From contig DAOVER010000064.1 in the NCBI GenBank assembly GCA_030668875.1, forward strand, positions 1 to 14,514: DNA of 14,514 bases, read 5' to 3'. The notes beneath the pieces are model-generated. The model made no database searches and was not told the origin of the DNA. It was given only the letters and a program-made list of their open reading frames with translations. A program made the position numbers and the translations under genes. Shown here piece by piece: positions 1,251 to 8,983 of this stretch. The stretch is from Candidatus Heimdallarchaeota archaeon. Lineage in GTDB: Archaea; Asgardarchaeota; Heimdallarchaeia; Heimdallarchaeales; Heimdallarchaeaceae. Numbering within the stretch: position 1 is the first letter of the stretch; each line of letters begins with the position of its first letter.

Positions 1251-1943
1251 TCATTTTTTCCAGAACTGCCACCTTTTTTTAGCTGAAGATCCTTTTTTAT
1301 CTTCTACTCTGCTAACTGTTTTCCTTAATTCTAGAATACCATCCCTTAGTCCCAATTTATAGATAAGCTCGCGAAAACCATCAGGTTCATTTTCTTCTTC
1401 AATCACATAAATGATTGGAAATCTTTTTCTCTTTACTTCTAGCTGTCTAGTGATTCTGCCGGCTTCATACTTCTCCTTAACTTGACTATCTTTACCAATC
1501 CAAACATAAAGTATGTTATAAGCATCCAGAACAAAAGCATCATCTGATTGAAAGCGTTTGTGTTCAATAGGAAGTTCAGAAACTATTATCTCTCCTTCAT
1601 CATTCTCCTTAATCTGAAGCAATCTGAAATCTTTCTCGTACTTTGTGTCAATTGATTTGAGAAATCCTAAAGTATCTCCTTCAACAACTTCAAAATCAAT
1701 CTGTTCATTAAACTCTACAGGTTCTAAACCTTGATTGATAGTTTCAATTTTCAGTTCATTGTTTTGAATTTCAATCTTCTTTGCTCCCCAAGAACCTATA
1801 AATTTCTCATCAGCAAAAGATTTGGAACCTAACCATATCCAGAGAATGCTTTCTGTTTCAATAACATAAACGTCACCATTAAGAAACTGATACGGTTCCG
1901 TGATTGGAATCAGTTCATTTCCTACAATATGAAATACATTCAT
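1251..1943 (-). CDS. Two-domain gelsolin-family protein (Asgard 2DGel-like actin regulator); probable start ATG 1943, ORF open from 2015
   Basis: Two gelsolin repeats: FLNGDVYVIETESILWIWLGSKSFADEK and FQSDDAFVLDAYNILYVWIGKDSQVKEK...EENEPDGF. The C-terminal tail contains LRKT and KKRWQFWKK. Confidence 0.9.
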   Translation of the reverse strand: MNVFHIVGNELIPITEPYQFLNGDVYVIETESILWIWLGSKSFADEKFIGSWGAKKIEIQNNELKIETINQGLEPVEFNEQIDFEVVEGDTLGFLKSIDTKYEKDFRLLQIKENDEGEIIVSELPIEHKRFQSDDAFVLDAYNILYVWIGKDSQVKEKYEAGRITRQLEVKRKRFPIIYVIEEENEPDGFRELIYKLGLRDGILELRKTVSRVEDKKGSSAKKRWQFWKK

Positions 1944-2090
1944 AGATAGTAAAAGTAATCCTTTGTTAAAACAGTTTTCCCAATAGTCCCTCGTGTTTGG
2001 GTTGATAGTTTGCAAAGTCTTTTATATTTCCATTAGGTGTTCAGATATTGTAAATATATAGTGAATTATTTCATTATATTTCAAGCATTA

Positions 2091-2624
2091 ATGGTGATAA
2101 AAATTAGAAAACAAAGAATTATAAAAGACTATGAAGCTCTGAGAAAATTACATAAAGAAGGAATCGTTGCGCAAGTAAAAACATTCCCTAAAGGTAAGAA
2201 ATCCATGGATCATCTAGCTGTTGGGTTCACTGCTCCTAAGGGGACCCCTTATGCTGGAGGTAAATATAAATTAGAGATTTTCTTTGGTCCAAATTATCCT
2301 TACAAACCTCCCTTTGTAAGACTTCACACACCTATTTGGCATCCTAATTTCTGGCCTAATCCAAAAGAATATCCAAAGAAGAGAAATATTTGTCTTGCTC
2401 TTGTAGATAATGATTTGGTTGGTAAACACGATGGTTGGTCTCCATCTAAAAGTATCACTACTGTCATTCACTCAATTCTTGCTATGTTTAACGTTGAAGG
2501 AGCGTACGTAAATCCTAAGGATGTATTTAACAAAGAAGCTGCTTTGGAATTTTTAAATAATAAAAAGAAATTCATTAAAAAAGCAAATACAATCAATAAG
2601 AAGTATGCAAAATCGTATTGGTAA
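2091..2624 (+). CDS. Ubiquitin-conjugating enzyme E2 (UBC fold); probable start ATG 2091
   Basis: Helix 1 RKQRIIKDY; PKGTPYAGGKYKLEIFFGPNYPYKPPFVRLHTPIWHPN; catalytic Cys in NICL (TGT 2391-2393); WSPSKSITTVIHSI; N.EAA...NKKKF. Confidence 0.95.
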   Translation: MVIKIRKQRIIKDYEALRKLHKEGIVAQVKTFPKGKKSMDHLAVGFTAPKGTPYAGGKYKLEIFFGPNYPYKPPFVRLHTPIWHPNFWPNPKEYPKKRNICLALVDNDLVGKHDGWSPSKSITTVIHSILAMFNVEGAYVNPKDVFNKEAALEFLNNKKKFIKKANTINKKYAKSYW

Positions 2625-3379
2625 TACTAGAATTAGATCTATCTGATGTGAAAATTATGGAAGATGAAGATAACAATTATCCTGTTGAATATAAAAAACT
2701 CCTTGAGAAAATCGAAGCAATTGAAAAAACTCTAGAATTGTTTAAAGTTGATGAAATTGTTGAGGATGTTGAAAAGGAAATTAAAGAAATTAGTGAGGAA
2801 ACCATTTCTGAAGATATTCTTCAGATCAAACCTATTTCAGAGATTGTAATAAAACCTAAAGCTTATCTAAAACTTGCAAAACATGCCTTAACCTATGCAA
2901 ATGATGCAATCCCTAAGAAGAAATGGGTTGAAGTAATAGGATTGCTTACAGGAAATATTAGGGGAGAAGAAACACCATTAGAACAAGTTGTTGTCGAGGA
3001 CTATTGGCCTGTAGATCAGGGTGATGCTGTGAGTGTAGAAATTGTTGATCAAAATATATTTACAGAAATCTTCCATAAAAAGAGAAACGAGCATTTTATA
3101 ATCGGTTGGGCTCATTCCCATCCAAGCTATACACCATTTCTGAGTGGTGATGATTATAGTACACATCTAAGATATCAAACATTTTGGAATAAATCTATAG
3201 CTCTTGTAATAGATCCTTTGATGCTCTCCCCAAAGGATTATGGAATTGGTGTATTTCGCATACATCAAGATAAACAAAAATATTACCAACTATCTGTTGA
3301 AGTTGAAGGAATGAGTAGTGAAGCGTGTTATGAGTCCATAAACACTTTTATGAAAAATCAAACCGATAATTCTAACTAG
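2618..3379 (+). CDS. JAMM/MPN+ metalloprotease (Rpn11/CSN5-like) with an acidic N-terminal coiled-coil extension; start is TTG 2618 or ATG 2657
   Basis: AYLKLAKHA...EVIGLLTG (Glu at 2930). Complete H-x-H-x7-S-x2-D motif in GWAHSHPSYTPFLSGDD (3113-3154), followed by IALVIDP. Confidence 0.93.
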   Translation: MVILELDLSDVKIMEDEDNNYPVEYKKLLEKIEAIEKTLELFKVDEIVEDVEKEIKEISEETISEDILQIKPISEIVIKPKAYLKLAKHALTYANDAIPKKKWVEVIGLLTGNIRGEETPLEQVVVEDYWPVDQGDAVSVEIVDQNIFTEIFHKKRNEHFIIGWAHSHPSYTPFLSGDDYSTHLRYQTFWNKSIALVIDPLMLSPKDYGIGVFRIHQDKQKYYQLSVEVEGMSSEACYESINTFMKNQTDNSN

Positions 3380-3402: not shown

Positions 3403-4515
3403 TTGGATTTAAATGATTTCAAAACCTATCTGGCAATCGGGATTGTTGGTTTAGTTGTTGGAATACTTTATCTAATTCTCCAAGATGATTTATCTAAAAC
3501 GTTAACTATTTTCTTCATAGCTCTGTACATTATTGTTTCATTAAGATATATTTTGGAAAGGAGACACTATAAGAAACACAAAGCGATTCTTGCTAGTACT
3601 CAATTCTTGCTCCTCCCTTTTAGCATTGTTTTGATGGGCAACTATATCTCTCCTCTAGTATACGGTTTGTTCACAATAACTATTGACATTTCTGGTGGAA
3701 ATACGATACAGATGTTCTTCAATTTTGTTTCTCTGTCTCTTATTATCCCAGTTATAATTTTAACTTTTCACTTTAATAATTACTACTCAAGAAAATGGCC
3801 AGCAATAGCTATTAGAAGAAAAGTGAAGAGAAGAAGAAGTATTCCTTTAATAATTCATAGTGTTTTCATTTTCACAATTCTATTAGGATTTTTTATAAAC
3901 GGGCAAATTGATCTAGTTAGTCTTATTTTCGCAATTATATTCTTGATTTTTATTTTTAGATATTTCATATTTGTTAGATTGATAAAATCAGAAAGACGTA
4001 CAGTAATAATGTCTAGTAGTTCTCCTAGCAGACAATCTACTAGGGCAAGAACTTCATCAACAACAAGTCGAAGGTCTTCTTCTCAAACTTCCAGGAGCAG
4101 ACAAATATCCTCTTCAACAAGAACTAGAACAGTTCAGTCAGCTTCTAGAGCTAAAAGAAGTAGTGCTAGGATTGATTCTGGTATTGAAATAACAAACAGA
4201 AAGAAAACTAAGAAACCCACAAAAACCATTAAGACTAAAACTACAGTTCGTGATTTCTTCCCAAATGGTAAGGCAAGTAAAGAAGAAGTGAAATGCATTA
4301 TTTGTTTTATGGATTTTGAGAAGAAGGATACAAGAAAAGTAATCCTCTGCCCTCATTGTAAGTATCCAGCTCATGAAGATGAATTTAGAAGTTGGTACCA
4401 AAATTCAAAATTCTGTGCAAGATGTAATAAGCCAATTTCAGCCTCATATGTAAGAAACCCTAAATACAGAATCACAACAAAAATCTATATTGAAAAAGTA
4501 ATTGACAAATTATAA
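3403..4515 (+). CDS. Polytopic membrane protein with a Ser/Arg-rich linker and a C-terminal RING-like zinc finger (putative membrane E3 ligase)
   Basis: About 5-6 hydrophobic segments in aa 1-192 (judged by eye), then a low-complexity S/R/T linker, then C-x2-C-x14-C-x2-C-x4-H-x2-E-x3-W-x6-C-x2-C (4294-4425). It lies in an operon with the E2 and JAMM genes. TTG start. Confidence 0.85.
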   Translation: MDLNDFKTYLAIGIVGLVVGILYLILQDDLSKTLTIFFIALYIIVSLRYILERRHYKKHKAILASTQFLLLPFSIVLMGNYISPLVYGLFTITIDISGGNTIQMFFNFVSLSLIIPVIILTFHFNNYYSRKWPAIAIRRKVKRRRSIPLIIHSVFIFTILLGFFINGQIDLVSLIFAIIFLIFIFRYFIFVRLIKSERRTVIMSSSSPSRQSTRARTSSTTSRRSSSQTSRSRQISSSTRTRTVQSASRAKRSSARIDSGIEITNRKKTKKPTKTIKTKTTVRDFFPNGKASKEEVKCIICFMDFEKKDTRKVILCPHCKYPAHEDEFRSWYQNSKFCARCNKPISASYVRNPKYRITTKIYIEKVIDKL

Positions 4516-4597: not shown

Positions 4598-5176
4598 ATG
4601 GGTACTTTGGCACATATAACTGGATCATTCATAACATCGTTATCCTTAGTCGGTGTTTCTATATACTACTTTATCGAAGGAAATGTTGACTTAGGCAAAT
4701 TTTTCATTTTCTTATCCATATATGTCTTTATTACCTTATTTTACATAATTCGAAGTTTATTCTATTTAAAACATAAAGCCACTTTCAACGAATTCATTTA
4801 TGTTTTTATTTTACCAATTGTTCCCGTTTTAATATTGCTGGCTCAAATGCTCTTTGATGTAAATCACTTTGGTACAGTTACTATTAGCGGATTTCCTGAT
4901 GAAAGTTTCAGGGAGGTCAATGCTGTTGATTTTCTTCTATTACCTTATTATCTATATAGTACATTTTTACTCTTTAGAACCTTCATTAGATATCCATTCA
5001 TTAGATTTAGAAGTACAAGCGAAAAAGGGATGAATCCTAAATTTGCCGGTGTTTTACTAATGTTAATTATCCCCGTCATCTATATTGTTACATCAGTAAC
5101 ATCTTTCGAAAATTTCTTCCTACTAATTTCTGGAATAATTTATCTCTACTCAGCCATTATGGCTATATTTGTATGA
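4598..5176 (+). CDS. Polytopic membrane protein, RING-less paralog of the upstream E3 membrane domain
   Basis: About 6 hydrophobic segments. Colinear matches with the 3403 protein: DLSK/DLGK, Y..KHKA, LP, TI.ISG/TVTISG, P.I..R and terminal IFV. Confidence 0.8.
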   Translation: MGTLAHITGSFITSLSLVGVSIYYFIEGNVDLGKFFIFLSIYVFITLFYIIRSLFYLKHKATFNEFIYVFILPIVPVLILLAQMLFDVNHFGTVTISGFPDESFREVNAVDFLLLPYYLYSTFLLFRTFIRYPFIRFRSTSEKGMNPKFAGVLLMLIIPVIYIVTSVTSFENFFLLISGIIYLYSAIMAIFV

Positions 5177-5194: not shown

Positions 5195-5854
5195 TTAACT
5201 TCTTTTTTGCCTTGGTTTCTTGGTTTGTTTAGGATACTTTTGGCTTGGAACTTTATGTTTAGGTATCTTTTGTTTAGGTATTTTATCCTTTTTTACTTCC
5301 TCTATCTTTGATGTTGCAGGAGCTTCTTTTGTTTTCTTTTCTCTTCTTTCTTCTTTTGGTAATGAACGAGAATATGCTTCTGTAATCTCTTTGAATTTCT
5401 CTCGATCATCAGAAGGAGGTGTTTCTTCTCTCTTTTTCTTCTCTTCTTTCTTTAGTGCTTTAGAATCTATAGAGTCTATTTCTTTATATTTCTCTCTTCT
5501 AGGTGGAAGAGACTCCCTTTTCTTTGGTTTAGATTTTTCTTCTTGTGGAATGTAATTAGGTGATTTTGTACTTGAGAAAGTGTCTTGTTTAGGGATTTTA
5601 TCTTTAGGTATCTTTTGTTTTGGAATCCCTTTATTTCTTCCTGATTCTCGACTGTCTCTAAACTGTGATCTTACAGGTTTTGTTTCTGTTTTTCGAGCTT
5701 TTCTTTTTTCAGGAGGAAAAAAATCTTCATCTTTAATCTGCTGTTTAGGGATTTTATCTTTAGGTAATTTGTGCTTTGGGATTTTCGAATCGTATGGAAA
5801 TTTTTGCTTGGGAATTTTGTTTGAAATGCTTTTTTTTCTGTTTCTTTTACCCAT
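5195..5854 (-). CDS. Lys/Glu/Pro-rich, probably disordered protein with K-(hydrophobic)-P-K-x pentapeptide repeats
   Basis: 219-aa ORF starting at ATG, with an upstream AGGTG Shine-Dalgarno-like motif. About 12 KIPKQ-like units occur in three clusters. Confidence 0.75.
   Translation of the reverse strand: MGKRNRKKSISNKIPKQKFPYDSKIPKHKLPKDKIPKQQIKDEDFFPPEKRKARKTETKPVRSQFRDSRESGRNKGIPKQKIPKDKIPKQDTFSSTKSPNYIPQEEKSKPKKRESLPPRREKYKEIDSIDSKALKKEEKKKREETPPSDDREKFKEITEAYSRSLPKEERREKKTKEAPATSKIEEVKKDKIPKQKIPKHKVPSQKYPKQTKKPRQKRS
5586..5766. repeat. Exact 25-bp direct repeat TGTTTAGGGATTTTATCTTTAGGTA (5586-5610 and 5742-5766); degenerate copies near 5222-5290
   Basis: Read directly from the sequence. 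It encodes PKDKIPKQ in the minus-strand protein. Confidence 0.9.
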
Positions 5855-6109
5855 GTGTAAGTCACACCTATTCTAGCCTTTCATGTTTTTCATGATTTTT
5901 GAACGTTTTCAATTTTCATCCTTGTAATTAACATAAGTTACTTGGTTTGAAAACTTATCTAAACCCCAAATTAGTGATAATTATATTTTTGATAAAGATT
6001 TTAGGTTTATTTAAGTTTTTAAATAAGAATAGTTATGTTAAACTATAGGTAATTTTTTAATAAATATGTTGGACTATATTATTTGTATACTAACAAAGGA
6101 TTGAAAAAA

Positions 6110-6469
6110 ATGAGCGAAGAATTTGAAGAAATTTCTTTTGACGAAGAAAAAGAAGAAGAAGAGGTTGTAGAAACCGAAATCAAATCTAAAACTCCTGACA
6201 AGACTAAAACTCCTGCAGGTAAGAAAATAAGTGTATATTTCCAAAGCACAATTGGACCAAGTCCAAAACAAGAAAAACTTGTTGTAGCAACTGATGCTCC
6301 TATTAGTGATATAAAATATACAGTTAGTCAGATCTTTGGGTTACCACCTGATGAATTCCATCTATCTCATGCTGGAAGAACATGTGACAATGACGATGTT
6401 CTTGAAGATTATGGGGTTGAAGATGGAGATACAGTTCTACTGATTCCAGTTTCAACAGCAGGTTGTTAA
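6110..6469 (+). CDS. Ubiquitin-like modifier precursor with an acidic N-terminal extension, ending ...STAG-C; probable start ATG 6110
   Basis: Ungapped manual alignment to ubiquitin residues 23-76: ISDIKYTVSQIFGLPPDEFHLSHAGRTCDNDDVLEDYGVEDGDTVLLIPVSTAG versus [54 protein letters not shown]. Lies next to the E1 gene. Confidence 0.92.
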   Translation: MSEEFEEISFDEEKEEEEVVETEIKSKTPDKTKTPAGKKISVYFQSTIGPSPKQEKLVVATDAPISDIKYTVSQIFGLPPDEFHLSHAGRTCDNDDVLEDYGVEDGDTVLLIPVSTAGC

Positions 6470-6494: not shown

Positions 6495-6521
6495 AGACTC
6501 AAATTGAGTCTCTTTATTTTT
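6495..6521 (+). terminator. Inverted repeat followed by a T-tract between the Ubl and E1 genes (terminator/attenuator or protein-binding site)
   Basis: AGACTCAA-A-TTGAGTCT is a perfect inverted repeat (6495-6511), followed by CTTTATTTTT. Confidence 0.45.
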
Positions 6522-6601: not shown

Positions 6602-7858
6602 ATGAACGCAAAAGACACAAAAAAATCTAATTTCTTCGATGAAACCCTTTCAAAAGATGAGAGAATAAGATTCGATAGACAACTTAGATTACCAGGATGG
6701 AATCAGAAAGCTTTGAAGGATTCAACAGTTTTAATCGTTGGAGTAGGAGGATTAGGAACAGAAACAGCAAAAAACTTAGCTATGGCTGGTGTGGGAACTA
6801 TTCATCTTATCGATTTAGATATTATTGAATATTCGAATCTGAATAGACAAATATTGTTCTCAGATGCAGATGAAGGAGATCCTAAAGCTAAAGTTGCAGC
6901 AAGAGCTCTAGAAAAGATAAACCCCTATAGTAAATACATTTGGCACCATTCCAATCTAGAAGATGTTGATCCAGAAGTCTATGCGACAGCTGATTTGTAT
7001 ATTTCTGGCTTAGATTCTGTTACAGCAAGGAATGAGCTAATACGAAGAGCGGTTCAGTTTAAGAAACCGATGATTGATGGAGGAACTGCAACATATTATG
7101 GTCATGTTTATACTTATTTACCAGGTAAAAATGCATGCCTTCAATGTGATCCACAACAAGAACGCGAAAGAGAATCTTTAGCAGCTTGCACACTTGTAGG
7201 AATACCAAGAAAGAAATCTCATTGTTTGTTGAAAGGACAACTATATTTTGAATCAAAGAACAATAGACCCCCCGATACGACTGTTTTGGAAGAAATGAAT
7301 CTTGTAATAAATTATGCAAATAATTTAGTGAAAGAGCATTTTCCATCTGAAAATGTATTTTCTTTAGATGAAGCTGTGAAAATGGTTGACCAGCACGACC
7401 CAACAATCATAAGTATTAATGCTGTAATGGCCTCTTTACAATCACAAGAAGCATTGAAACTTATGCACCATCTCAAAGGAATAGAACTAGGTACTGTAAA
7501 TCCTGAGTATGTTATTTACAATGGATTAGTAGGGAAATTCTTCTATATAGAAAAGCCACCAAATAAGAAATGTATGCTCTGTGGTAAAAATGCTACTGCA
7601 ATTGAAGAAGTAAAATTACCTGCAACTGCTACTATCGATGTTTTACTCTCAATTATTAAAAGTAGAGGGTATGATTATGATCCTGAATTTTTACCTTCAT
7701 TTTGGTTAATTGATAAAAAAGACCCTGTAGATGTAGAAATAGATTCAACTGTGAAAGAACAAGGGATACGAAACCATGAAACATTGTATGTTACAGGTCT
7801 TACGAATAAAGGTGAAGAAATCGATCTTAATGTTAGGATAATCCTGAATCAAGGCTAA
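6602..7858 (+). CDS. Ubiquitin-like activating enzyme E1 (UBA2/UBA3-type, with catalytic-Cys domain and probable C-terminal ubiquitin-fold domain)
   Basis: RFDRQLRL; Rossmann VGVGGLG; D..EYSNLNRQ; DGGT; zinc pairs CLQC (7136) and CMLC (7571); catalytic motif CTLVGIPRKKSHC (Cys 7187-7189); PTIISINAVMA; about 90-aa C-terminal extension. Confidence 0.95.
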   Translation: MNAKDTKKSNFFDETLSKDERIRFDRQLRLPGWNQKALKDSTVLIVGVGGLGTETAKNLAMAGVGTIHLIDLDIIEYSNLNRQILFSDADEGDPKAKVAARALEKINPYSKYIWHHSNLEDVDPEVYATADLYISGLDSVTARNELIRRAVQFKKPMIDGGTATYYGHVYTYLPGKNACLQCDPQQERERESLAACTLVGIPRKKSHCLLKGQLYFESKNNRPPDTTVLEEMNLVINYANNLVKEHFPSENVFSLDEAVKMVDQHDPTIISINAVMASLQSQEALKLMHHLKGIELGTVNPEYVIYNGLVGKFFYIEKPPNKKCMLCGKNATAIEEVKLPATATIDVLLSIIKSRGYDYDPEFLPSFWLIDKKDPVDVEIDSTVKEQGIRNHETLYVTGLTNKGEEIDLNVRIILNQG

Positions 7859-8593: not shown

Positions 8594-8983
8594 ATGAGTG
8601 AAAGAGAAGTAAAATACTACAAAATGCTAGCCAAGAAATTCAAAATCAAGGAAAAAATGTTTGATGAAAAAGAAGATTTTGATGAGTTAGAAAGAGACAA
8701 AGCAAGTTTTCAGAGGAAACAAGCTACAGAGAATGCTAAGGTTCAAGATCAGCTTATTAAGATTCAAAAACTCAGAGAAAATGGTGATGAAGACAAAGCG
8801 CTGAGACAAGAAATGAAGCTGAAGAAGAAGGAAGCAGCTATTGCCAAATATAAGCGCACCATCTCAGATATTCAGAGGAAAATAGATAAGAAAAAACTTG
8901 AAGTTAGAAAAATCGAAGATGAACTGGAAAAAATTGAATCTCAATTAAGAGCTGATTTTGCGGATAGGTTCACACAAATGTAA
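8594..8983 (+). CDS. Highly charged all-helical or coiled-coil hypothetical protein
   Basis: 129 aa, K/E/R/Q/D-rich with heptad-like spacing and no Pro. An AT-rich promoter-like tract lies upstream and a T-tract downstream. Confidence 0.8.
   Translation: MSEREVKYYKMLAKKFKIKEKMFDEKEDFDELERDKASFQRKQATENAKVQDQLIKIQKLRENGDEDKALRQEMKLKKKEAAIAKYKRTISDIQRKIDKKKLEVRKIEDELEKIESQLRADFADRFTQM

What the first reader, a model, noticed from the sequence alone, without database searches (positions are those of the whole stretch)
6110..6469. Atypical ubiquitin: natural K48R/K63D/I44S substitutions, Lys-rich acidic N-tail and a one-residue-capped AG-C terminus
Seen, by ungapped alignment to ubiquitin: the K48 position is R, K63 is D, K29 is T, K33 is I, I44 is S, R72 is V and G75 is A; K27 is retained. 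The C-terminus LLIPVSTAG-C has the Pro-x4-Gly spacing and Cys-ending cap of the human UFM1 precursor (RIIPRDRVG-SC). A ~28-aa acidic then Lys-rich tail precedes the fold, as in SUMO. Inference: this modifier should not form K48 or K63 chains or bind I44-patch receptors. It probably needs removal of a single Cys, plausibly by the neighbouring JAMM since C. subterraneum Rpn11 is known to process pro-ubiquitin. Chains, if any, may use tail lysines. Alternatively, the terminal Cys could be lipidated or act as a redox cap.
Basis: partly seen in the sequence, partly recalled or inferred. Interest (0 to 1): 0.75.

Follow-up and report, generated by a model that had tools for sequence, protein, structure and literature searches.

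The report
Asgard ubiquitin-like tag ending Ala-Gly

Summary
The ORF 6110-6469 (+) encodes a 119-aa ubiquitin-fold protein. In ungapped register with ubiquitin it has T29, I33, S44, R48, D63, V72 and A75, keeps K27, and ends LLIPVSTAG-C.

- The substitutions, the Ala-Gly end and the N-terminal arm are invariant or near-invariant across more than 100 homologues. These come from Heimdall-, Hod-, Hermod-, Loki- (including Lokiarchaeum ossiferum), Thor- and Sif-labelled genomes.
- The gene usually sits in a Ubl-E1-E2-Rpn11-like JAMM-membrane RING cluster.
- The Cys cap is not conserved. 16 of 20 same-genus species and 10 of 15 members of the 90%-identity cluster stop right after AG. Others carry I, K or WI. 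A co-occurring strain contig in the likely source sample lacks exactly these 3 bases.
- Lipid or redox roles for the Cys are therefore unlikely, and the UFM1 likeness is superficial: the E1 is UBA3/Uba1-like and the E2 is UBC-type.
- The arm is 38 aa, not about 28. It carries an invariant Phe in an acidic motif and conserved SKTP repeats.
- The same genome has a second, ESCRT-linked Gly-Gly ubiquitin with its own E1.

This scan had already met the Ala-Gly family on other (Loki) DNA. I found no paper that describes it.

The parts
6110..6469 (+). Ubl precursor gene (119 aa, stop included). The start is the ATG at 6110, not the TTG at 6083.
   Evidence: Orthologues all begin MSEEFEE. Pfam ubiquitin 32.2 bits.
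6110..6223 (+). Disordered N-terminal arm, residues 1-38: acidic part 1-23, then a Lys/Thr/Pro-rich part.
   Evidence: AlphaFold2 gives pLDDT below 50 for residues 1-23, with strand 1 starting at 39. Column conservation.
6116..6133 (+). Acidic Phe motif EEFEEI (residues 3-8); F5 is invariant in the family.
   Evidence: F5 in 88/88, E4 in 76/88, E6 in 74/88. The motif occurs in no other gene of the operon.
6182..6214 (+). Two conserved S/T-K-T-P motifs (KSKTP...KTKTP, residues 25-35) carrying the conserved tail lysines K27 and K33.
   Evidence: K27 in 81/88, T28 in 78/88, P29 in 82/88, K33 in 73/88, P35 in 74/88.
6224..6448 (+). Beta-grasp ubiquitin fold, residues 39-113.
   Evidence: AlphaFold2 pLDDT 90-94 over the fold. 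Best Foldseek hits are C. subterraneum ubiquitin 6fno_D and 6fj7, then ubiquitin.
6356..6382 (+). Most conserved block, FHLSHAGRT (residues 83-91). It holds S86 at the Ile44 position and R90 at the Lys48 position.
   Evidence: F83, S86 and G89 are invariant; H84 in 85/88; R90 in 78/88. Part of the predicted JAMM interface.
6437..6463 (+). Near-invariant C-terminal tail LLIPVSTAG (residues 110-118); Gly118 is the presumed mature end.
   Evidence: LLIPVSTAG in 75 of 115 members, and every member fits the search pattern [LIVM][LIVM][LIVM]-P-x-[ST]-x-A-G. 46 of 115 stop right after AG.
6464..6466 (+). TGT codon for the one-residue Cys cap, a strain-level 3-base insertion.
   Evidence: Relatives read GCAGGTTAA where the window reads GCAGGTTGTTAA. 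A minor contig in run X1 and a relative in X6 lack 3 bases here.
6495..6521 (+). Terminator-like hairpin followed by a T-run, between the Ubl and E1 genes.
   Evidence: 7-bp stem then CTTTATTTTT; 2 such sites found against 0.3 expected in shuffles. This is a consensus match only.
6602..7858 (+). Cognate E1 (418 aa) of the eukaryotic UBA3/Uba1/SAE2 type.
   Evidence: Pfam ThiF 185 bits. Best PDB hit UBA3 at 114 bits, UBA5 only 50 bits. An E1 lies within 6 kb of the Ubl in 63 of 80 related loci.
2091..2624 (+). E2 (UBC fold) with an HPN motif and a Cys.
   Evidence: Pfam UQ_con 92.5 bits. Present in 55 of 80 related loci.
2657..3379 (+). Rpn11-like JAMM metalloprotease, the presumed processing and deconjugating enzyme. 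The likely start is the ATG at 2657.
   Evidence: Pfam JAB. Best PDB hit is CsRpn11 6fjv. E92, H153, H155, S163 and D166 are invariant in 27 orthologues. Complex model.
3403..4515 (+). Multi-pass membrane protein with a C-terminal RING-like finger, the presumed E3.
   Evidence: Only weak Pfam RING hits, all below cut-off. Conserved next to the JAMM in 49 of 80 loci.
4598..5176 (+). Membrane protein without a RING, conserved after the RING protein.
   Evidence: tblastn hits in 27 of 80 loci. No Pfam family.
5195..5854 (-). Lys-rich basic repeat protein transcribed divergently from the Ubl gene; a genus-level neighbour only.
   Evidence: Found in 19 of 80 loci, all close relatives.

Best explanation
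The gene encodes the precursor of an Ala-Gly-type ubiquitin-like modifier, the tag of a widespread Asgard E1-E2-JAMM-membrane-RING cluster.

Proposed mechanism:
1. Gly118 is the reactive end.
2. The 418-aa UBA3-like E1 encoded just downstream adenylates and thioesterifies Gly118.
3. The tag passes to the UBC-type E2 and is attached to targets with the help of the membrane-embedded RING protein.
4. The Rpn11-like JAMM trims whatever follows Gly118 (here one Cys) and presumably also removes the tag from targets.

The Cys itself has no function. It is a recent 3-base insertion at the stop codon, tolerated because a trimming protease exists.

The family-wide S44, R48, D63 and V72, the Ala-Gly end and the conserved acidic-Phe/SKTP arm set this tag apart from the Gly-Gly ubiquitin that the same genome encodes in its ESCRT cluster. 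The two are probably separate pathways.

Shown here: fold, family, conservation, synteny and variability of the cap. Inferred: activation, conjugation, trimming, and separation of the two pathways.
For: Fold and family:
-.

Conservation of the Ala-Gly end:
- 115 family members were collected with the pattern [LIVM][LIVM][LIVM]-P-x-[ST]-x-A-G. 46 end exactly at AG; the rest carry 1-13 variable residues.
- In the 88-sequence alignment, which did not use that pattern, A117 and G118 are 88/88.
- Head-to-tail poly-Ubl genes with diverged units (P0092 with 3 units, P0093 with 2) require cleavage after AG.

Cap variability:
- Same genus: 16 of 20 end AG-stop; the others are K, I, WI and C.
- 90% cluster: 10 end AG, 3 AG-I, 2 AG-C.
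- A minor contig in the likely source run lacks the 3 bases.

Synteny and distribution:
- Of 80 loci from Heimdall-, Hod-, Hermod-, Loki-, Thor- and Sif-labelled genomes, 63 have the E1 within 6 kb, 55 the E2, 53 the JAMM and 49 the RING membrane protein (also 23-25).
- The family profile matches 127 of 300 sampled genomes of the phylum.

Enzymes:
- E1 nearest to UBA3/Uba1/SAE2.
- JAMM nearest to CsRpn11, with an intact catalytic motif.

Precedent:
- CsRpn11 removes the propeptide CGEPIRRAA, and the uncleaved form is not activated by the E1 (PMC5654768).

Complex model of Ubl 36-119 with JAMM 60-240 and Zn:
- Score 0.89, best of 3 controls 0.00.
- The mark was reached by 58 of 80 solved complexes and 2 of 110 mismatched pairs; these counts hold only roughly here, because my own alignments and a riding Zn were used.
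- The runs agree in at least 95% of contacts, and the partner's pLDDT is at least 92.
- The tail 110-119 and the conserved blocks 46-50 and 82-91 touch the catalytic region.
- A like complex (6FNN/6FNO) is solved, so the pass may reflect likeness rather than this pair's binding.

Second system in the same genome:
- Snf7 x2, Vps4, ESCRT-II, a Vps23-Vps28 fusion, a 334-aa E1 and a 78-aa Ub ending GG-Y.
- Elsewhere there is another active-looking E2 and another JAMM.
Against: - No biochemical data exist for any member, so activation of an Ala-Gly end by this E1 is inferred.
- In the one tested relative, CsRpn11 cleaved a Gly-to-Ala mutant at the penultimate position much more slowly (PMC6043591). 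An Ala-Gly end is therefore not a good substrate for every Rpn11-like JAMM, and co-adaptation has to be assumed.
- Cleavage of a single-residue leaving group by a JAMM has not been shown.
- The Ubl gene is not next to an E1 in some genomes (L004; 17 of 80 loci).
- The RING assignment rests on sub-threshold Pfam hits.
- Nothing here explains the invariant Phe of the arm.
Confidence: 0.7

Rival explanations
1. The terminal Cys is a functional feature of the modifier: a lipidation site, a redox-sensitive cap, or a regulated block to activation.
For: - The Cys form is real. It is seen on 3 contigs, and a second cluster member (P0248) also ends AG-C.
- A few distant members also start their extension with Cys (L073 'C', L114 'CFE', L099 'CYIERI', P0072 'CINS').
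- The C. subterraneum propeptide also starts with Cys.
Against: - Only 3 of 69 extensions contain any Cys.
- Most same-genus and same-cluster orthologues have no extension, and others have I, K or WI.
- A variant without the codon co-occurs in the likely source sample.
- The DNA looks like a simple 3-base duplication at the stop codon.
Confidence: 0.03
2. In this strain the cap disables the tag. The JAMM cannot remove a single residue, so the protein is not conjugated and acts, if at all, only by non-covalent binding (a drifting or regulatory-null allele).
For: - Uncleaved C. subterraneum pro-ubiquitin is not activated by its E1.
- Single-residue trimming by a JAMM is untested.
- Residues after the cleavage site can block CsRpn11: C79E and G80W do.
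Against: - The rest of the gene and the whole operon are intact and highly conserved.
- One- to three-residue caps are common across the family (46 of 115 members), which argues that they are tolerated.
- Cys is the natural first residue after the cleavage site in the C. subterraneum substrate.
- The complex model places residues 110-119 in the catalytic groove (same caveat about likeness to a solved complex).
Confidence: 0.08
3. The protein is a sulfur carrier or SAMP/Urm1-like tag that is activated by a MoeB-type E1 and needs no E2 or E3.
For: - Two homologues carry the automatic name 'molybdopterin converting factor small subunit'.
- The E1 gives sub-threshold hits to MoeB/ThiF models in NCBIfam.
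- The genome has a third, MoeB-like ThiF protein on contig C38.
Against: - The Ubl matches Pfam ubiquitin, not ThiS/MoaD.
- The adjacent E1 is closest to UBA3/Uba1/SAE2, and the alignment runs through the region of the catalytic-Cys domain.
- An E2, a JAMM and a RING protein are conserved in the same cluster.
Confidence: 0.04

Closest known systems
Caldiarchaeum subterraneum ubiquitin operon (CsUb, E1, E2, small RING protein, CsRpn11), reconstituted in vitro (PMC5654768, PMC6043591)
   Same: - It is the best structural match of the Ubl (6fno_D and 6fj7, 28% identity) and the best PDB match of the JAMM (6fjv).
- It has the same operon logic.
- The precursor has a removable C-terminal extension whose first residue is also Cys.
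- An Rpn11-like JAMM acts as both processing and deconjugating enzyme.
   Different: - CsUb ends Gly-Gly and has no N-terminal arm.
- Its RING protein is small and soluble, whereas here it is fused to a multi-pass membrane domain.
- A penultimate Gly-to-Ala change slowed CsRpn11 strongly, yet Ala is invariant here.
ESCRT-linked Asgard ubiquitin (Heimdall ubiquitin with V45 that binds the UEV domain; PMC9192718)
   Same: Same genome and same fold, with an E1 41% identical over the adenylation domain. It also has a one-residue cap (GG-Y).
   Different: - That protein is 78 aa and has no arm. It keeps the hydrophobic patch residue (V45) and has Lys in the K48 register and Arg in the R72 register.
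- It ends Gly-Gly and lies among ESCRT genes.
- The window's Ubl is only 27% identical to it over 56 residues.
Eukaryotic UFM1 (precursor ends Gly83-Ser84-Cys85; PMC12076054)
   Same: A single terminal Gly preceded by a non-Gly residue, a Pro five residues before it, and a precursor that ends in Cys.
   Different: - There is no Pfam Ufm1 match.
- The E1 is UBA3/Uba1-like, not UBA5-like (114 against 50 bits).
- The E2 is UQ_con, not UFC1-like.
- The protease is a JAMM metalloenzyme, not a UFSP cysteine protease.
- The Cys is not conserved.
SUMO and NEDD8 (second modifiers with their own canonical E1 and E2 beside ubiquitin; established knowledge)
   Same: - Like SUMO, it has a disordered N-terminal arm with conserved lysines.
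- Like NEDD8, it has a non-Arg residue at position 72 and an E1 closest to UBA3.
- Like both, it coexists with a Gly-Gly ubiquitin that has its own E1.
   Different: - Both end Gly-Gly.
- The Rad60-SLD hit is below cut-off (21.3 against 23.8).
- NEDD8 keeps Ile44 and Lys48 (established knowledge).
- No phylogeny was made here that would link the family to either.
One-residue caps on the last unit of eukaryotic polyubiquitin genes (established knowledge; recalled, not tested here)
   Same: A variable, non-conserved residue after the terminal Gly that must be trimmed before activation; as recalled, a Cys in human UBB.
   Different: In eukaryotes it is trimmed by cysteine-protease DUBs. Here the only candidate in the cluster is a JAMM.

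Membership tests
Ubiquitin family (Pfam PF00240), conjugatable type | Sequence match above the curated threshold | tested here: met
   32.2 bits against a cut-off of 25.4.
Ubiquitin family (Pfam PF00240), conjugatable type | Beta-grasp fold | tested here: met
   AlphaFold2 pLDDT 90-94 over residues 39-113. Foldseek TM-scores (normalised by target) of 0.8-0.9 to ubiquitins.
Ubiquitin family (Pfam PF00240), conjugatable type | C-terminal Gly-Gly exposed after processing | tested here: not met
   The end is Ala-Gly, and Ala117 is invariant in 88 of 88 homologues. The terminal Gly itself is present.
Ubiquitin family (Pfam PF00240), conjugatable type | Genetic linkage to E1, E2 and E3 | tested here: met
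   E1, E2, JAMM and a RING-like membrane protein lie in the window and in most of 80 related loci.
Ubiquitin family (Pfam PF00240), conjugatable type | ATP-dependent activation and isopeptide conjugation | not testable with these tools
   Needs biochemistry.
Asgard Ala-Gly Ubl family (defined here and in earlier notes of this scan) | Tail motif [LIVM][LIVM][LIVM]-P-x-[ST]-x-A-G at or near the C-terminus | tested here: met
   LLIPVSTAG at residues 110-118.
Asgard Ala-Gly Ubl family (defined here and in earlier notes of this scan) | Acidic N-terminal arm with an invariant Phe and SKTP motifs; STIGP and FHLSHAGR blocks in the fold | tested here: met
   F5, T47, G49, P50, F83, S86 and G89 are invariant columns.
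UFM1 | Match to the Ufm1 sequence family | tested here: not met
   No PF03671 hit at E up to 0.1.
UFM1 | UBA5-type E1 and UFC1-type E2 | tested here: not met
   E1 scores 114 bits to UBA3 against 50 bits to UBA5. E2 matches UQ_con at 92.5 bits.
UFM1 | Conserved Ser-Cys propeptide | tested here: not met
   The cap is absent in most orthologues.
SUMO | Match to the SUMO-like family and a Gly-Gly end | tested here: not met
   Rad60-SLD scores 21.3 bits, below the cut-off of 23.8. The end is Ala-Gly.
SAMP/Urm1/MoaD-type sulfur carriers | ThiS/MoaD-type sequence and a MoeB-type E1 without an E2 | tested here: not met
   No ThiS/MoaD Pfam hit. The E1 is of the eukaryotic type and an E2 is present.

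The most novel reading that the evidence does not exclude
Asgard archaea run two separate canonical E1-E2 modifier pathways in one cell. One is the ESCRT-linked Gly-Gly ubiquitin. The other is a membrane-RING-linked Ala-Gly modifier whose identity is set by V72, the Ala-Gly end and S44. Its conserved acidic-Phe/SKTP arm would be the element read by receptors or used for chain building. On this reading, the division of labour between ubiquitin and a second modifier (as with SUMO or NEDD8) predates eukaryotes. The conjugates would also be invisible to standard di-Gly remnant proteomics.
Probability: 0.35. Interest if true: 0.75.

Novelty: new variant of a known kind. Interest (0 to 1): 0.5.

Why it matters
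Archaeal eukaryote-type ubiquitin systems are used to reconstruct how ubiquitin signalling arose. The papers I could read treat Asgard ubiquitin as a Gly-Gly protein with an Ile44-like patch that feeds the ESCRT machinery (PMC9192718; bioRxiv 10.1101/2023.07.25.550441).

This window belongs to a second, widespread Asgard modifier with a different reactive end, a different surface and a conserved arm. It is wired to a membrane RING ligase and its own UBA3-like E1. If the two pathways are separate, a ubiquitin-plus-second-modifier arrangement is older than eukaryotes.

A practical consequence: the last Lys or Arg before the C-terminus is R90, so trypsin would leave a 28-residue remnant. Di-Gly remnant searches would miss the conjugates.

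The family is present in the cultured Lokiarchaeum ossiferum (L094), so it can be tested.

Tried and rejected
- UFM1 kinship: rejected (no Ufm1 hit; E1 and E2 are of the wrong type).
- Conserved Cys cap: rejected.
- A partner for the N-terminal arm among the window's genes:
  - A search of all six frames found the acidic-Phe motif and the SKTP motif in no other gene of the operon. The one other match, EDFDEL at 8672 in the coiled-coil ORF 8594-8983, looks like chance.
  - The monomer model does not dock the arm on the fold (pLDDT below 50). This is no evidence either way.
I could not reproduce that in this window.
- The divergent Lys-rich gene as a conserved partner: it is found only in close relatives (19 of 80 loci). 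The genes at that position in L004, L006 and L008 are unrelated.
- NCBIfam has no model for the Ubl, E2, JAMM or RING protein.
- Expression: no RNA holder listed.
- Literature: four searches for an Ala-Gly-ended or arm-bearing Asgard Ubl found no description. The library is incomplete, so this is not proof of novelty.
- Not attempted:
  - A phylogeny with SUMO, NEDD8 and UFM1, because no tool gave me those sequences and the fold is too short for a robust tree.
Full report
WHAT IS THERE. The ORF 6110-6469 on the + strand encodes a 119-aa protein. Orthologues all begin MSEEFEE, so the ATG at 6110 is the start, not the upstream TTG at 6083. The protein passes Pfam 'ubiquitin' (32.2 bits, cut-off 25.4). 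HMMER against PDB polyubiquitin aligns residues 59-112 with ubiquitin 17-70 without gaps. BLASTP against one unit of a natural polyubiquitin aligns 57-118 with 15-76 without gaps.

K27 is kept as K69, and G76 is G118, followed by C119 and TAA.

AlphaFold2 with a 55-sequence alignment gives a confident beta-grasp fold for residues 39-113 (pLDDT 90-94) and a disordered arm for residues 1-38. The arm is therefore 38 residues, not about 28. The nearest solved structures are Caldiarchaeum subterraneum ubiquitin (6fno_D and 6fj7, 28% identity), followed by ubiquitin itself.

THE FEATURES BELONG TO A FAMILY, NOT TO THIS GENE. A word-indexed search gave 91 relatives, and an exhaustive HMMER search gave more. 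In an 88-sequence alignment:
- S86, T71, A117, G118 and F5 are each present in 88 of 88.
- K69 is present in 87 of 88.
- R90 is present in 78 of 88 and is never Lys.
- The K63 position is D, N or E in 79 of 88.

Most members end LLIPVSTAG or a near variant, and A117 and G118 never vary. The arm is conserved too: an acidic motif around the invariant Phe (residues 3-8 here), and two S/T-K-T-P motifs with conserved lysines K27 and K33, plus K39. The fold keeps conserved lysines K53, K56 and K69.

THE CYS CAP IS AN ACCIDENT.
- Of 115 family members, 46 stop right after Ala-Gly. The others carry 1-13 residues with no pattern, and only 3 extensions contain a Cys.
- Among species representatives of the window's own genus, 16 of 20 read AG-stop. 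The rest read K, I, WI and, in this genome, C.
- Within the 90%-identity cluster of this very protein, 10 of 15 listed members end AG, 3 end AG-I and 2 end AG-C.
- At the DNA level the window reads GCAGGTTGTTAA where relatives read GCAGGTTAA (L026; GCTGGTTAA in L037). This fits a 3-base duplication at the stop codon.
- I laid assembled contigs of public runs on the region. The run that may be the source of this DNA also holds a minor, related contig (depth 8.85 beside 38) that lacks 3 bases at 6465. A cold-seep relative lacks 3 bases at 6463. Another variant reads on after GGT into a four-residue extension.
- These are contigs, and one run may be the source, so this is weak but consistent support.

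A lipid anchor or redox role for the Cys has no support.

THE CLUSTER. The window also encodes:
- a UBC-type E2 (2091-2624);
- an Rpn11-like JAMM (2657-3379);
- a multi-pass membrane protein with a RING-like finger (3403-4515);
- a RING-less membrane protein (4598-5176);
- a divergent Lys-rich gene (5195-5854, minus strand);
- the Ubl;
- a 418-aa E1 (6602-7858).

The E1 is closest to UBA3, Uba1 and SAE2 (about 110 bits) and far from UBA5 (50 bits). The JAMM is closest to CsRpn11. Its Glu, His-x-His, Ser and Asp residues are invariant in 27 orthologues.

I looked at 80 related loci from genomes labelled Heimdall- (including AB_125), Kari-, Hod-, Hermod-, Promethearchaeota/Loki (including the complete genome of Lokiarchaeum ossiferum), Thor- and Sifarchaeum. 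The E1 lies within 6 kb in 63 of them, the E2 in 55, the JAMM in 53 and the RING membrane protein in 49 (also 23-25). The usual order is Ubl (one or two copies), E1, E2, JAMM, RING protein. The window's genus has a permuted order.

The family profile matches 127 of 300 sampled genomes of the phylum. It is common in some families (23/27, 9/11, 18/21, 60/68) and was not found in others that were searched (0/76, 0/19, 0/11).

The family also occurs as head-to-tail poly-Ubl genes with diverged units, arms included (P0092 and P0093). It also occurs as a C-terminal domain of larger proteins that end at Ala-Gly. Both forms imply that cleavage or exposure at Ala-Gly is what matters.

HOW IT MOST LIKELY WORKS. 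By analogy with the reconstituted C. subterraneum system, whatever follows the terminal Gly must be removed before the E1 can act. There, the Rpn11 homologue removes a nine-residue propeptide that begins with Cys, and the uncleaved form is refractory to the E1 (PMC5654768; PMC6043591).

I modelled Ubl 36-119 with JAMM 60-240 and zinc:
- The score was 0.89; the best of 3 controls was 0.00.
- The mark was reached by 58 of 80 solved complexes and 2 of 110 mismatched pairs. These counts hold only roughly, because my own alignments and a riding ligand were used.
- The runs agree in at least 95% of contacts, and the partner's pLDDT is at least 92.
- The interface comprises the tail 110-119, the STIGP loop (46-50) and the FHLSHAGRT block (82-91, including S86). 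These lie against the JAMM region that holds E92, H153 and S163-D166.

A like complex (6FNN/6FNO) is solved, so this pass shows likeness and is not proof that this pair binds. It does suggest that the family's most conserved surface is the one read by its protease.

One tension remains. CsRpn11 cleaved a penultimate Gly-to-Ala mutant much more slowly, whereas Ala is invariant here. The JAMM and E1 of this cluster must therefore be adapted to Ala-Gly. Activation, conjugation and trimming are all inferred.

TWO SYSTEMS IN ONE GENOME. Contig C91 of the same assembly carries Snf7 x2, Vps4, two ESCRT-II subunits, a Vps23-Vps28 fusion, a 334-aa E1 and a 78-aa ubiquitin. That ubiquitin has no arm. 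It has Val at the Ile44 position and Lys and Arg in the K48 and R72 registers, and it ends Gly-Gly-Tyr. This matches the Heimdall ubiquitin with V45 that binds the UEV domain (PMC9192718).

The two Ubls are 27% identical over 56 residues. The two E1s are 41% identical over the adenylation domain. The genome also has a further active-looking E2, a second JAMM with a C-terminal membrane helix, and a MoeB-like third ThiF protein. The parts for two separate pathways are therefore present. Whether they are insulated from each other is untested.

COMPARISON WITH WHAT IS KNOWN.
- The kind, an archaeal eukaryote-type ubiquitin operon, is known.
- The variant has an invariant Ala-Gly end, Ser at the Ile44 position, no Lys48 or Lys63, and a conserved acidic-Phe/SKTP arm. 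It is paired with a membrane RING protein and a canonical-type E1.
- I did not find this variant described in four literature searches.
- The papers I read describe Asgard ubiquitins with a conserved di-glycine motif and an Ile44-like patch. One states that Thorarchaeota seemingly lack true ubiquitin homologues.
- Single-Gly modifiers are known in eukaryotes (UFM1, and by recall ATG8 and ATG12), but with non-canonical E1s. Here the E1 is of the UBA3/Uba1 type.

EARLIER NOTES OF THIS SCAN. The same Ala-Gly family had already been noted on other DNA. There are two Lokiarchaeal windows with follow-ups reaching the same main conclusions, and one first-reader note. I reached my reading before I saw them, and I tested the shared claims here on independent loci.

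VERDICT. The Cys cap is ordinary and incidental. The modifier family behind it is a real, widespread and apparently undescribed variant of archaeal ubiquitin-like tagging, and this window is one more member of it. The unexplained item of most interest is the invariant Phe in the acidic arm.

Noticed in passing
G000 contig C91, locus L120:2407-9820: The same genome has an ESCRT cluster: two Snf7, Vps4, ESCRT-II Vps25-like and Vps22/36-like subunits, and a Vps23-Vps28 fusion. It is directly followed by a 334-aa E1 and a 78-aa Gly-Gly ubiquitin with a one-residue Tyr cap.
   Followed up: partly
P0092 (L130:59-1177) and P0093 (L132:205-957): Head-to-tail poly-Ubl genes of the Ala-Gly family, with 3 and 2 diverged units. 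Each unit has its own acidic arm and STAG-type end. They are seen only on contigs of about 1.2 kb.
   Followed up: partly
L008:4802-6544 and P0184: A HerA/DUF87-type ATPase carries a C-terminal Ubl domain of this family that ends SSRAG at the stop. In a Loki-type genome it lies just upstream of the Ubl-E1-E2-JAMM cluster.
   Followed up: no
P0132, P0139, P0159, P0169; also L004:8876-9817: Proteins with an N-terminal zinc-ribbon-like CxxC motif, a coiled coil and an acidic linker are fused to a C-terminal Ubl of this family. In L004 a CxxC protein sits divergently next to a free Ubl. Homology between the two was not tested.
   Followed up: no
window 6495-6521: A terminator-like hairpin and T-run lie between the Ubl gene and the E1 gene. 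This could let the tag be made in excess over its E1. It is a consensus match only.
   Followed up: no
window 2618-2657: The JAMM ORF listed from the TTG at 2618 probably starts at the ATG at 2657, because orthologues begin MEDE.. or MENE.. at that point.
   Followed up: partly
window 5195-5854 (minus strand): The Lys-rich KIPKQ-repeat protein is always divergent from the Ubl gene, but it is found only in close relatives (19 of 80 loci). Other lineages have unrelated genes at that position.
   Followed up: partly
L115 (DATKTW010000176.1): A contig labelled Candidatus Nanopelagicaceae bacterium carries the full Asgard-type Ubl-E1-E2-JAMM-RING cluster. It is probably a mis-binned contig.
   Followed up: no
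L006:8399-8770, L025, L029, L033 and L034; L077-L118: Many genomes carry two paralogous Ala-Gly Ubl genes in front of the E1, for example one ending IPHSTAG and one ending IPVSTAG. The window's genus has only one.
   Followed up: partly
G000 contig C36 (L126:1486-2328) and contig C68 (L121:1453-1920): The genome has a second JAMM with a C-terminal membrane helix and a stand-alone active-looking E2, both away from either Ubl cluster.
   Followed up: no
window 1251-2015 against L049, L053, L054 and L063: The gelsolin-like gene lies upstream of the E2 in the window and in L040. In other close relatives it lies about 2.6 kb downstream of the E1. The neighbourhood has therefore been rearranged within the genus.
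   Followed up: no
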